Shown: positions 49,201-52,200 of the stretch, piece by piece
How positions within the stretch are numbered: position 1 is the first letter of the stretch
Layout: each line of letters opens with the position of its first letter
Source: Nitrospiraceae bacterium
GTDB lineage: Bacteria > Nitrospirota > Nitrospiria > Nitrospirales > UBA2166
Assembly: GCA_002726235.1 (NCBI GenBank)
Contig: PBSN01000007.1
Coordinates: 62,001 to 126,000, forward strand
Length of the DNA: 64,000 bases
Reading direction: 5' to 3'
Made by a program: the position numbers

Positions 49201-52200
49201 AAAATGTGAGGGTTCTGGTCTTCGCAAAAGGGGAAAAAGAGGCGGAGGCTCGCGATGCTGGCGCAGACATTGTTGGTGCAGAGGATTTAGTCGAGAAAAT
49301 CCAAGGAGGATGGTTGGAATTTGATCAAGCGATCGCGACGCCAAATCTTATGGGCATGGTCGGAAAATTGGGGAAAGTTCTTGGTCCCCGTGGTTTGATG
49401 CCAAATCCAAAAACTGGAACTGTAACGCTTGATCTTGCCAAGGTGATTGGTGAAATTCGGAAAGGCCGTGCTGAATTTAAAACGGACAAGACCGGAAACA
49501 TACACGTCACTGTTGGTAAGGTGTCCCTCCCCCGAGGCAGTCTCTGTGAAAATGCTAACGCGATACTTGAATCAATTGTGAAAGCGAAACCGGCATCAAG
49601 CAAAGGGCGTTATCTTAGGGGGGTTTCGCTTTCCTCTACGATGGGGCCGGGGGTTGCACTTGATCCGGTCGCGGTTACGAAACGGCATACGTAACCATAT
49701 TTTCCCCGCCTCTGTTGGAGAAGTGACAGAATGAAGAAAGAGATGAAGACGCAGGTTGTTGCAGGTTTGAATGAGAAGTTTTCTCGGGCTCAGGTGGCAA
49801 TTCTGACCGAGTTTAGCGGAGTGCCGGTGGGGGAGATGACTGAGCTTCGTAGGCTTTTTCGCGAGGCAAAGGCTGAGCTGAAAGTAGTGAAAAATCGTCT
49901 TGCCATACGGGCAGCCGAGGATACACCACTTGCCATTGCGACGGATCGTTTTCGTGGCTCTCTTGCGGTTGCTCTTGGCTATGATGACCCCATCGTTCCT
50001 GTGAAAATTCTGAACGACTTCATTACGAAAGAACGTCGTCGTCAACGATTCACCATGCGTGCTGGGGTCATCGAAGGACAGATTCTTGAGGCGAAGGCGT
50101 TAAATGATTTGGCAAATTTGCCATCTCGCCACCAGTTGCTGGGAATGTTTCTCTCAGCGATGCAGGGATCGATTCAGGGGTTTGTCAGTGTGTTGTCGGG
50201 ACCGGCACGAAGCTTAGTATATATGATCAGTGGGCTCATTGAACAAAAGAAAGGAATGGGAGAGATGGCTGATGTGAAAGAAACAAGCACATTAACAGAT
50301 GACGATATTCTTGGCGCGGTTGAGCAGATGTCTGTCCTTCGGTTGTCCGAATTGGTAAAAAAAATTGAGGAACGTTTTGGGGTCACTGCGGCGATTCCCA
50401 TGGCAGCTCCTGCCGCAGGAGGGGCAGCCGCTCCTGCAGAGGCTGAGGAGAAAACCTCATTTGATGTGGTGTTGAAGAGTGTAGGTGACAAGAAAATTCA
50501 GGTTATCAAGGCGGTGCGAGAGATTACGAGCCTAGGCTTGAAGGAAGCAAAAGATCTTGTAGAAGGGGCACCGAAACCTGTGAAGTCAGGTGCCGCAAAA
50601 GATGAGGCGGAGACGATAAAGAAAAAGCTAGAAGAGCATGGTGCAACGGTTGAGATTCAGTAACTGTTGTTGGTCGCTGCGTATGAAAGTGGGGGGAGGC
50701 TTCACACGATGACGTCCAGCCATANTGCCATCAAACGCACGGACCTTTCCAAGATTCGTACCTGTCTTGAGGTTTCATCCCTTGTTGAGATGCAAACGCG
50801 TTCCTATGCGGACTTTTTGCAATTGAATGTGCCTCCAGAGAAAAAGGAGGATCGGGGGCTTCAAGCAGCACTAACGAGTGTCTTTCCCATCGCCGATTAT
50901 AATCGCTCGGCTACGCTTGAGTTTGTAAATTACTCTCTCGGGGACTCGAAATATAGCGCTCGGGATTGTATCGAGTACGGCATGACCTATGCCGCTTCAC
51001 TGCGGATTCGTATCAGGCTCATCGTTCTTCGTAAAATGGAACAAGAGGAGCCGCAGGAAGTTCGTGATGTACAGGAAGTTCGTGATGTAAAAGAACAGGA
51101 AATATATGTTGGTGAATTGCCGTTGATGACGGAACGAGGCACGTTCATTATCAATGGAACCGAACGCGTCATCGTCAGTCAGCTCCACCGGTCACCAGGT
51201 GTGACGTTCATGCATGACAAAGGGAAAACATATGCGAGCGGAAAGGTTTTGTTTTCCGCCAGAATCATCCCATATCGTGGCTCTTGGCTTGATTTCGAGT
51301 TCGACACCAGAGATGTGTTGTACGTGAGGATTGACCGAAGAAGAAAAATGCCTGCAACGGTTTTGCTGAAAGCCTTTGGCTACTCCACGGATGAAATTCT
51401 CAAGATGTACTATTCGGTAGAAGAAATCACGGTCGTAAAAGGGAAGCTCTTTCGGAAGTTGGATGTGGAAATACATGCTGGTATCCGCTCCCCAGCCGAT
51501 GTTCGTGACAAGCGCTCGGATGAGCTCATTGTGCGTGAAGGCCAAAAGCTGACGCGATCTAGTATTCAAAAGATGATTTCTGCGGGGGTAAAAACGGTTC
51601 CCATTGACCCTGAAGCGTTGGTGGGGCGGACTACCTTGACTGAGATTGCGAATACGGCGAGTAAAGAGATTCTCGTCGAGAAAAACACCGTGATTTTGGA
51701 GGCCGCACTCGAGGTGTTGCGGAGTGGCAAGGTAAATGGTTTTAAAGTGATCTATGTTGCGCCCGCTGCCGTGCCGGTTATACAGATTACCTTGGCTGCG
51801 GAGAAGTCCAATTCCACAGATGAAGCCATGGTTGAAGTGTATAAACGGCTTAGGCCAGGCGAGACTCCAACCGTCGAGACTTCCCGCGCGCTCTTTGAGA
51901 ACACTTTTTTTAACTCGAAGCGTTATGATCTTTCGCCTGTTGGACGGTTAAAAATTAATAATCGGCTGGGGCTTGATGTTCCTCTCGGTGACCGGACCCT
52001 CATGGCTAAGGATATTGCCGAAGTTGTCCGCTATCTTGTTTCGTTGAATGAGGGCAAAGGGGATGTCGATGATATCGATCATCTCGGAAACCGGCGAGTG
52101 AGAGCTGTGGGAGAATTATTGGAAAATCAGTTCAGGCTCGGTTTAGTGTGGATGGAGCGGAATGTCAGAGAGCGGATGACCCTGTCGGATTTGGAAATGG

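What a model noticed while it worked through the whole genome (the two positions that open the first line are those of the whole stretch)
49731..50663. Ribosomal stalk genes rplJ and rplL are fused in frame (uL10-bL12), with the rplL start site kept inside the ORF
g00555 (310 aa) is one ORF encoding a complete uL10 (aa 1 to about 175) followed without stop by a complete bL12 (aa 179-310); there is no separate rplL and rpoB follows directly. The fusion is an order-wide trait of Nitrospirales and was not seen in the rest of the phylum. At the junction an ATP-independent signal is kept: an invariant ATG preceded by a conserved purine-rich GGAG-containing string, so free bL12 is probably still made by internal initiation while every uL10 carries one covalently tethered bL12.
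Evidence so far: pfam.tsv/ncbifam.tsv: Ribosomal_L10 1-97, Ribosomal_L12_N 191-236, Ribosomal_L12 244-310, the only L12 rows in the genome; NF000955 (L10) and TIGR00855 (L7/L12) equivalogs both hit at 0.98-0.99 model cover. search_genomes over 301 Nitrospirota genomes: 72 of 75 other Nitrospirales give one stop-free match over residues 1-309 (the other 3: split over two contigs, cut, no match), whereas every match of that span listed from other orders and classes carries 1-5 stop codons, or the two halves match separately; several outgroups have just one in-frame TAA, so loss of one stop codon suffices. The sister species has a 311-aa orthologue at 81%. Alignment of 30 Nitrospirales loci: junction consensus [...]
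(Added by a program. Inside this text positions count along the whole contig: contig position 62,001 is position 1 of the stretch shown here. "Call 12" and the like, gene names such as g00115 and contig names such as C1 are that model's own, and its searches are not shown. The text may have been shortened before it was handed on; [...] marks where a part breaks off. The agent that wrote the report below was given it as the finding of a first reader that could run no searches.)

Follow-up and report, generated by a model that had tools for sequence, protein, structure and literature searches.

The report
Fused ribosomal stalk gene uL10-bL12
In this bacterial order the two ribosomal stalk proteins uL10 and bL12 are encoded as one continuous gene that still carries a working-looking start site for bL12 inside it, so the ribosome probably has one stalk arm permanently tied to its base.

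Summary
Window 49731-50663 (+) is one 310-aa ORF: a complete uL10 (aa 1-175), then a complete bL12 (aa 179-310), with no other bL12 in the genome. In 151 genomes of the order, 142 have a stop-free full-span match. Five more cross the junction stop-free at contig ends, one is cut before the junction, and three have no bL12 match at all. None has a stop at the junction.

One genome of the sister order (G433) is also fused, and sporadic independent fusions occur in Chloroflexota, Armatimonadota, Bipolaricaulia and Fervidibacterota.

Four sequence signatures mark the junction as a live translation start:
- an ATG in 57 of 57 loci, covering 29 genera;
- a Shine-Dalgarno match at least as strong as at the rplJ start in 53 of 57;
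- the lowest synonymous variation of the whole ORF;
- the weakest mRNA folding in 49 of 49 loci.

Best reading: one gene gives two products. The full-length uL10-bL12 starts at the first ATG, and free bL12 starts at the internal site.

No protein-level evidence exists. Cleavage of the tether is not excluded. I found no paper that describes the fusion. I rate it a new variant of a known kind, of moderately high interest.

The parts
49002..49694 (+). rplA (uL1), the gene directly upstream. Only 36 nt separate its stop from the rplJ start.
   Evidence: TIGR01169 scores 318.4 bits. ORF. No Rfam L10 leader was found in 45000-52000.
49717..49720 (+). GGAG Shine-Dalgarno (SD) of the first (rplJ) start, about 10 nt before the ATG at 49731.
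   Evidence: Sequence. Duplex energy with the anti-SD is -6.4 kcal/mol in this locus.
49731..50663 (+). The fused ORF uL10-bL12: 310 codons plus a TAA stop.
   Evidence: It is the only L10 and L12 locus in the genome.
49731..50255 (+). The uL10 part, aa 1-175.
   Evidence: NF000955 covers aa 5-173. It aligns without gaps in helix alpha8 to Thermotoga maritima L10, chain 1zav_A residues 5-178 of 180.
50127..50249 (+). Helix alpha8 of uL10 (aa 133-173), the rail that binds bL12 N-terminal-domain dimers. Its length matches the three-dimer type.
   Evidence: The AF2 model has helices at 133-154 and 159-173. It aligns residue for residue with alpha8 of 1zav_A. T. maritima and T. thermophilus stalks are heptameric L10(L12)6 (PMC1635324, passages).
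50247..50264 (+). Purine-only string AAGAAAGGAATGGGAGAG, which encodes K-K-G-M-G-E. It is both the tether between the two proteins and the internal Shine-Dalgarno region.
   Evidence: This stretch has the lowest synonymous codon entropy of the whole ORF, at aa 172-176. Gly175 is GGA in 34 and GGG in 10 loci and never GGC or GGT, although gene-wide Gly usage is GGG 30%, GGC 30%, GGA 23%, GGT 17%.
50265..50267 (+). Internal ATG (Met179), the ancestral rplL start codon, kept in frame.
   Evidence: An ATG sits at the aligned position (aa 178-181) in 57 of 57 loci covering all 29 genera sampled. The 60-nt window around it is the least folded part of the ORF.
50265..50660 (+). The bL12 part, aa 179-310. 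N-terminal tail 179-189, dimerisation domain about 190-216, flexible Ala/Pro-rich hinge 217-243, factor-binding C-terminal domain 244-310.
   Evidence: TIGR00855 covers aa 186-309. Pfam gives L12_N at 191-236 and L12 at 244-310. The AF2 model has helices 190-198 and 202-216, coil 217-243 and a folded domain 244-309.
50709..54677 (+). rpoB, the next gene, 45 nt after the fused ORF's stop.
   Evidence: TIGR02013 scores 1827.6 bits.

Best explanation
This is one gene with two protein products.

Ribosomes that start at the rplJ ATG (49731) meet no stop after helix alpha8. They read on through an 18-nt purine-rich tether into bL12 and make a 310-aa uL10-bL12 chain. Other ribosomes start independently at the conserved internal Shine-Dalgarno (SD) plus ATG (50265) and make free bL12 of about 132 aa. 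Free bL12 is needed in several copies for each uL10.

In the stalk, the uL10 part binds 23S rRNA, and its alpha8 helix offers three dimer sites. The tethered bL12 hangs from the C-terminal end of alpha8 on a link of about 16 residues. There are two options for where its N-terminal domain goes. It may pair with a free bL12 and take the outermost alpha8 site, which gives six C-terminal domains. Or it may form an extra dimer beyond alpha8, which gives up to eight.

Shown here:
- the open frame and its fixation across the order;
- the conserved start-site signatures.

Inferred:
- that both products are made;
- the ratio between them;
- that the tether stays uncut;
- where the tethered domain sits.
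For: 1. The frame is open in every informative genome of the order. Of 151 genomes, 142 are full-span and 5 are partial but cross the junction; none has a stop there. All four families and all 29 genera are covered, including 39 genomes listed with one contig and exactly one match each.

2. No second bL12 exists in the window's genome. Efficient translation needs several bL12 dimers per ribosome (PMC3299993, abstract), so free bL12 must come from this ORF.

3. An ATG is at the junction in 57 of 57 loci.

4. The SD duplex energy before it averages -9.6 kcal/mol, against -7.9 at the rplJ start of the same genes. It is at least as strong in 53 of 57 loci and is the best among internal ATGs in 41 of 57. 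Free-standing rplL starts give -7.9 (26 loci of the same phylum) and -8.2 (76 loci of other phyla).

5. Synonymous variation is lowest in the whole ORF at aa 172-176. The Gly there is GGA or GGG in 44 of 44 loci and never GGC or GGT, which make up 47% of Gly codons gene-wide.

6. The 60 nt around the ATG fold at -6.6 kcal/mol on average. The rest of the ORF averages -17.0 and the rplJ start -7.3. The junction is weaker than the ORF mean in 49 of 49 loci, with a median percentile of 0.8%. Free-standing rplL starts give -5.0 and -5.9.

7. Independent fusions in Chloroflexota (G654, G745) also keep AGGAGG-type SDs 6-8 nt before an ATG or GTG at the bL12 N-terminus, at -10.8 and -12.1 kcal/mol. 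By my own reading of the sequences printed, 16 of 21 fused representatives from other lineages keep a Met at the junction.

8. On the 49-locus tree a free four-fold site changed at least 17 times. About 5.6 single-base changes in the 8 tether codons would create a stop, yet none is seen. So the open frame is maintained and not merely tolerated.
Against: - There is no protein, ribosome-profiling or transcript-end evidence for either product.
- The RNA contigs found cover only 49555-50031 and do not reach the junction.
- Codon bias does not separate the halves clearly. The bL12 half is more biased in 29 of 49 fused loci (mean difference in effective codon number, Nc, 1.9), against 23 of 31 unfused pairs (mean 4.6).
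- In the window's own genus the internal SD is weaker: -7.0 kcal/mol, rank 4 of 17 internal ATGs.
- Weak folding and low synonymous variation could partly follow from a Lys/Gly/Glu-rich tether peptide selected for its own sake.
- The purine-only constraint itself disfavours T, which inflates the 'no stop regained' argument.
- The sequences are related, so the counts overstate independence.
- The AF2 monomer model is of low confidence over alpha8 and the tether (pLDDT 32-52 over aa 141-200). It says nothing about where the tethered domain docks.
Confidence: 0.7

Rival explanations
1. The long chain is a precursor. It is made as described, but a protease cuts the Lys/Gly/Glu tether. Mature ribosomes then carry ordinary separate uL10 and bL12, and internal initiation still supplies most of the bL12.
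For: The tether K-K-G-E-G-E/D is strongly conserved at the protein level and is predicted to be coil, so it is accessible. Nothing in the sequence forbids cleavage.
Against: The conservation is strongest at the nucleotide level: codon choice is constrained, not just the residues. That fits an RNA signal better than a protease site. In one family the peptide differs (K-P-K-E-E-S/P) while the SD is even stronger, at -12.2 kcal/mol. If the tether were simply removed, regaining a stop would be harmless, yet none was regained. No dedicated protease is known for this; that statement rests on recall only.
Confidence: 0.2
2. The fused chain is the only product. There is no internal start, and each ribosome has a single covalently attached bL12.
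For: The ORF has no stop between the halves. No direct evidence for the short product exists.
Against: bL12 N-terminal domains bind alpha8 as dimers, and several dimers are needed for efficient initiation and elongation (PMC3299993, abstract). The alpha8 here keeps the full three-site length, which would be pointless without free bL12. All four start-site signatures would be left unexplained.
Confidence: 0.04
3. Free uL10 is released by programmed frameshifting or termination at the Lys-rich run before the junction, so the fusion exists only on paper.
For: A run such as GAA AAA AAG, which resembles the dnaX-type slippery heptamer (a resemblance recalled, not tested), occurs in some loci.
Against: An in-frame A_AAA_AAR heptamer is present in only 5 of 57 loci. 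The first stop in the +1 and -1 frames lies at widely varying distances, so no shifted-frame stop is conserved.
Confidence: 0.03
4. The fusion is an assembly, sequencing or gene-calling artefact.
For: The window holds a few N bases in neighbouring genes (X in nusG and rpoB), and many of the genomes are assembled from metagenomes.
Against: The same stop-free frame is found in 147 genomes from independent assemblies, 39 of them listed as single contigs. It also appears in thousands of independently predicted proteins from six sources. Length and junction are conserved throughout.
Confidence: 0.01

Closest known systems
Canonical bacterial rplJ-rplL pair and the L10(L12)4-6 stalk (e.g. Thermotoga maritima, PDB 1ZAV)
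   Same: The operon place is the same: rplK-rplA-rplJ-rplL-rpoB-rpoC. The uL10 fold and alpha8 length are the same. So are the bL12 domain order, the rplL SD plus ATG, and the weak folding at the start.
   Different: There is no stop codon and no intergenic spacer. The 27-60 nt spacers seen in unfused relatives are replaced by 18 coding nucleotides. One bL12 is therefore covalently joined to the end of alpha8. No solved chain in the PDB matches both halves.
Archaeal and eukaryotic uL10 (P0), whose own C-terminus carries a flexible linker and the same factor-binding tail as the P1/P2 stalk proteins (recalled knowledge, not tested here)
   Same: The logic is the same: the stalk base protein carries one built-in copy of the factor-recruiting arm in addition to the detachable copies.
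   Different: The origin is different. Here a whole bL12 gene was appended by loss of a stop. bL12 and P1/P2 are not homologous in their factor-binding parts. This is an analogy, not membership.
Bacterial genes that give a long and a short protein from in-frame internal starts (infB IF2 forms, clpB, cheA; recalled knowledge)
   Same: One ORF has two in-frame start sites, each with its own SD. The short product is identical to the C-terminal part of the long one.
   Different: Here the internal start is the relic of a formerly separate gene. The short product is needed in excess over the long one. Expression of the two forms is not shown.
rpoB-rpoC fusion genes (NCBIfam NF007172, NF011417 'beta/beta' subunit')
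   Same: Two neighbouring essential genes of the same operon are joined by loss of a stop. Partial matches to these models appear for the unfused rpoB and rpoC of this window.
   Different: Those partners are needed 1:1, so no internal start is required. The stalk pair is needed at about 1:4-6.
Sporadic uL10-bL12 fusions elsewhere: G433 of the sister order; Chloroflexota G654, G745, G546, G636; metagenome-assembled genomes labelled Armatimonadota, Dehalococcoidia, Bipolaricaulia, Fervidibacterota
   Same: Same domain order. Most have a Met at the junction. A strong SD sits before the start in the two examined at DNA level.
   Different: They are scattered single species or small clusters: 1 of 36 genomes with a match in the sister order, and 4 full-span of 301 in Chloroflexota. 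Their linkers differ. Only in the window's order is the fusion fixed across four families.

Membership tests
uL10 (bacterial ribosomal protein L10, NF000955 / PF00466) | The equivalog model scores above its curated cut-off over nearly its full length. | tested here: met
   155.9 bits against a cut-off of 85, model positions 2-167 of 168, aa 5-173. PF00466 scores 82.9 bits against 22.8.
uL10 (bacterial ribosomal protein L10, NF000955 / PF00466) | A C-terminal helix alpha8 that binds bL12 dimers in 10-residue segments. | tested here: met
   Gap-free alignment of aa 133-173 to alpha8 of 1zav_A. Helix predicted at 133-154 and 159-173. Binding itself was not tested.
uL10 (bacterial ribosomal protein L10, NF000955 / PF00466) | It stands as a separate polypeptide ending shortly after alpha8. 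| tested here: not met
   There is no stop after alpha8. The frame runs on into bL12.
bL12 (L7/L12, TIGR00855 / PF16320 + PF00542) | The equivalog model scores above its cut-off, with an N-terminal dimerisation domain, a flexible hinge and a C-terminal factor-binding domain. | tested here: met
   154.1 bits against 84.4, model positions 2-124 of 125. PF16320 covers 191-236 and PF00542 covers 244-310. The model shows two helices, a coil and a folded domain.
bL12 (L7/L12, TIGR00855 / PF16320 + PF00542) | It is present in several copies per ribosome as free chains. | not testable with these tools
   This needs protein analysis of ribosomes. Only the start-site signatures speak for a free form.
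Two-product gene with an in-frame internal translation start | An in-frame start codon preceded by a Shine-Dalgarno sequence at working distance, conserved across relatives. | tested here: met
   ATG present in 57 of 57 loci. Mean SD energy -9.6 kcal/mol, at least as strong as the rplJ start in 53 of 57.
Two-product gene with an in-frame internal translation start | RNA-level constraint and an open mRNA structure at the internal site. | tested here: met
   Lowest synonymous entropy of the ORF. Least folded window in 49 of 49 loci.
Two-product gene with an in-frame internal translation start | Both the long and the short protein are detected. | not testable with these tools
   No proteomic or ribosome-profiling data were reachable. 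The RNA contigs do not cover the junction.

The most novel reading that the evidence does not exclude
Mature ribosomes of Nitrospira and its whole order carry an uncut uL10-bL12 chain. This would be a bacterial stalk with one non-exchangeable, covalently anchored arm, arrived at independently of the archaeal and eukaryotic P0 design. The tethered N-terminal domain recruits a free bL12 beyond the three alpha8 sites. That raises the number of factor-binding heads from six to seven or eight without lengthening alpha8. The ratio of base to arms is set by two competing start sites within a single ORF. The open frame is actively kept by selection.
Probability: 0.4. Interest if true: 0.8.

Novelty: new variant of a known kind. 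Interest (0 to 1): 0.66.

Why it matters
The bL12 stalk is the part of the bacterial ribosome that recruits the translational GTPases (recalled knowledge). Its copy number is treated as set only by the length of uL10 helix alpha8.

A whole order, including the globally important nitrite oxidisers and comammox Nitrospira, appears to build the stalk from a fused chain plus free copies. If so, it offers three things:
- a natural test of what a permanently anchored arm does;
- a clean natural example of stoichiometry being set by two start sites in one ORF;
- a bacterial parallel to P0.

There are practical effects too. Public annotation names these proteins only 'L10' or only 'L7/L12'. Marker-gene pipelines and stalk surveys may therefore miscount one of the two proteins in this order.

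The idea can be tested directly on cultured strains with standard mass spectrometry.

Tried and rejected
1. RNA evidence. One search for runs found two metatranscriptome runs from one study. Laid on 49000-51200, their contigs match exactly only at 49555-50031, which spans the rplA end into rplJ. Nothing covers the junction, so this gives no information on transcripts or starts there.

2. Codon bias of the two halves (effective number of codons). The direction is the same as in unfused pairs, but the effect is weak: 29 of 49 against 23 of 31. I count it as inconclusive.

3. The 'open_frame_aa' column of the genome search suggested that G361, G366, G382, G405, G460, G448 and G457 of the sister order were fused. 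Reading their DNA showed stops between the halves in all of them, so I rejected this.

4. The genome-contig scan listed 80 loci from many phyla with 'residues 1-310 matched'. Reading them showed that only the 3 records titled Nitrospira or Nitrospirae are fused; the other 77 are separate genes.

5. Frameshift idea: rejected.

6. Rfam found no L10 leader or other regulatory RNA in 45000-52000, only five tRNAs.

7. The promoter and terminator scan of 47400-51000 found no promoter-like site on the + strand. The number of sites was no higher than in shuffles.

8. The AF2 monomer gave domain limits but low confidence over alpha8 and the tether. I did not run a fold search or a complex prediction. 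uL10 with bL12 is a textbook pair that would pass by likeness to solved structures, and the output would not say which site the tethered domain takes.

10. Literature. Seven full-text searches gave no paper that describes a uL10-bL12 or rplJ-rplL fusion. Searches used 'L7 L12' as a phrase, which may not match 'L7/L12', so they are weak. I read passages of PMC3578206, PMC6375957 and PMC13001810, and none mentions the fusion. No supplements were opened. Papers outside the held library were not searched.
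Full report
**What is there.** Window 49731-50663 (+) is a single ORF of 310 codons, from ATG to TAA. 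Residues 1-175 are a complete bacterial uL10 and residues 179-310 a complete bL12. NF000955 scores 155.9 bits against a cut-off of 85 over 166 of 168 model positions. TIGR00855 scores 154.1 bits against 84.4 over 123 of 125 positions. The gene sits in the usual place: tuf, tRNA, secE, nusG, rplK, rplA, then this ORF, then rpoB and rpoC. The genome (1.87 Mb, 90.65% complete) has no other L10 or L12 match.

**How widespread it is within the order.** I scanned 151 genomes of the order with the whole protein.
- 142 give a stop-free match over residues 1 or 2 to 309/310.
- Five are cut by contig ends but cross the junction without a stop (G061, G034, G080, G055, G005).
- G031 is cut before the junction.
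- G037, G067 and G092 give no match and have no bL12 at all by TIGR00855. The same is true of G435 and G439 from the phylum sample.

No genome has a stop at the junction. All four families and all genera sampled are covered. The 39 genomes listed with one contig each have exactly one match, so none holds a separate rplL. Source names for close relatives are Nitrospira or Nitrospiraceae. The proteins are annotated as 'L7/L12' or as 'L10', never as a fusion.

**How widespread it is outside the order.** In a phylum sample of 401 genomes, 37 full-span matches from outside the order were listed. Of these, 36 carry 1-5 stops and one, G433, carries none. A scan of G433's own order covered 37 genomes, 36 with a match. 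At first it seemed to show more fusions, because the 'open_frame_aa' column was large. Reading the DNA showed stops between the halves in all 22 loci I checked except G433. So the sister order has 1 fused genome among 36.

A search of 1.84 billion cluster representatives found about twenty further 50%-identity clusters of 297-332 aa that match residues 1-309 in one stretch at 33-45% identity. The named members are metagenome-assembled genomes of Armatimonadota, Chloroflexota/Dehalococcoidia, Bipolaricaulia and Fervidibacterota. Most clusters have 1-4 members; one has 7 and one has 16.

In a sample of 301 Chloroflexota genomes, 80 gave full-span in-frame matches. Four of these are stop-free (G654, G745, G546, G636), and one further partial match is stop-free (G721). 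The two unpublished genomes in that sample, G651 and G750, both carry a stop and only enter the denominator.

The fusion is therefore recurrent but rare elsewhere, and fixed only in this order.

**The junction.** uL10 aligns without gaps to Thermotoga maritima L10 up to two residues from that protein's end, chain 1zav_A residues 5-178 of 180. So helix alpha8 has the length of the three-dimer stalks. T. maritima and T. thermophilus stalks are L10(L12)6 (PMC1635324, passages). The dimer sites span 10 residues each, counted from the L10 C-terminus (PMC3299993, abstract).

Right after alpha8 come six residues and then Met. The six are K-K-G-E-G-E/D in most genera, K-K-G-M/T-G-E in the window's genus, and P-K-E-E-S/P in part of one family. 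The bL12 sequence follows. Unfused relatives have a stop and a spacer of 27-60 nt in this place.

From the Met to the first bL12 helix there are 9-11 residues by my own count on the alignment. The median is 4.5 in 102 free-standing bL12 proteins, with ranges 0-13 and 2-29. The AF2 model shows coil at 174-189, which gives a tether of about 16 residues (low confidence there).

**Is the internal start alive?** Four tests bear on this.
1. An ATG is present at the aligned position in 57 of 57 loci, one or more from each of 29 genera.
2. Pairing with the anti-Shine-Dalgarno tail averages -9.6 kcal/mol before the internal ATG. It averages -7.9 before the rplJ ATG of the same genes. It is at least as strong in 53 of 57 loci, and best of all internal ATGs in 41 of 57. 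Real free-standing rplL starts give -7.9 and -8.2.
3. Among 214 scorable codon columns of 49 loci kept at under 95% nucleotide identity, the five-codon window with the least synonymous variation is aa 172-176. The Gly codon there is GGA in 34 and GGG in 10 loci, never GGC or GGT. Those two make up 47% of all Gly codons in these genes. AAA is preferred for Lys there although AAG prevails gene-wide.
4. The 60 nt centred on the internal ATG fold at -6.6 kcal/mol on average. Other windows of the ORF average -17.0 and the rplJ start -7.3. The junction is weaker than the ORF mean in 49 of 49 loci. Free-standing rplL starts give -5.0 and -5.9.

The two Chloroflexota fusions that I read at DNA level also keep AGGAGG-type sites before an ATG or GTG.

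These are the marks of a used start site. Still, the loci are related, and a Lys/Gly/Glu tether would by itself be purine-rich and poorly folded.

**Is the open frame kept by selection?** On a tree of the 49 loci, invariant-residue four-fold sites changed at least 17 times each by parsimony. They gained or lost a T at least 5 times. On average 5.6 single-base changes in the eight codons before the ATG would make a stop. If the frame were neutral, several reversions to two genes would be expected; none is seen in 147 genomes. Part of this may be the purine constraint itself, so I treat it as suggestive.

**Mechanism.** Every ribosome that starts at 49731 must make the long chain, unless it shifts frame. 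The slippery heptamer is present in only 5 of 57 loci and there is no conserved shifted-frame stop. Because bL12 is needed in several copies and no other gene supplies it, the internal site must provide the free form. I put 0.7 on this two-product model. Whether the long chain stays intact in the ribosome is open. A cleaved-precursor variant gets 0.2.

**Comparison and novelty.** No solved chain matches both halves. One search returned only single-protein models for this protein and no combined uL10-bL12 model, whereas fusion models appear for the neighbours L11 and rpoB/rpoC. Seven literature searches found no description. The nearest functional parallel, recalled and not tested, is P0 of archaea and eukaryotes, which carries its own copy of the stalk tail. 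I rate the finding a new variant of a known kind.

Noticed in passing
proteins P0122, P0123, P0132, P0135, P0136, P0176: These are long proteins of 593-1066 aa with 5-8 separate matches to the bL12 C-terminal region, that is, arrays of bL12 heads in one chain. P0122 is named 'ribosomal protein L7/L12' of Nannocystis pusilla (WP_346660302.1, 593 aa, 7 stretches).
   Followed up: partly
window 49695-49730: Only 36 nt lie between rplA and the fused gene. Rfam finds no L10 leader anywhere in 45000-52000, so the usual uL10-bL12 feedback site on the mRNA was not detected here.
   Followed up: partly
column of precomputed Pfam domains: Most fused relatives carry an extra precomputed family, PF27436.1, listed between PF00466 and PF16320. 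The window's own protein does not. The local Pfam copy did not report this family, so I do not know what it describes.
   Followed up: no
window about 48330 (nusG) and about 50726 (start of rpoB): Single N bases give X in the translations of nusG and of the rpoB N-terminal region. They do not touch the fused ORF.
   Followed up: no
G055:C60 (loci L075, L079): The fused gene is split over the two ends of one 13.9-kb contig: residues 1-220 at bases 6-659 and residues 247-309 at 13756-13944, on the same strand. The contig looks circularly permuted or wrapped by the assembler.
   Followed up: no
Genome search output: The 'open_frame_aa' value was the same large number (333-353) for the L10 and L12 matches of several genomes whose DNA has stops between the two genes. 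The column cannot be used to call fusions.
   Followed up: yes
window 45455-45932 and 47633-47705: There are four tRNA genes in a row upstream of tuf and one between tuf and secE. This is the ordinary arrangement.
   Followed up: no
loci L047 (G039) and L054 (G143): In two genera a second in-frame ATG lies seven codons after the conserved junction ATG, at aa 181 and 188. This could give two alternative bL12 N-termini.
   Followed up: no
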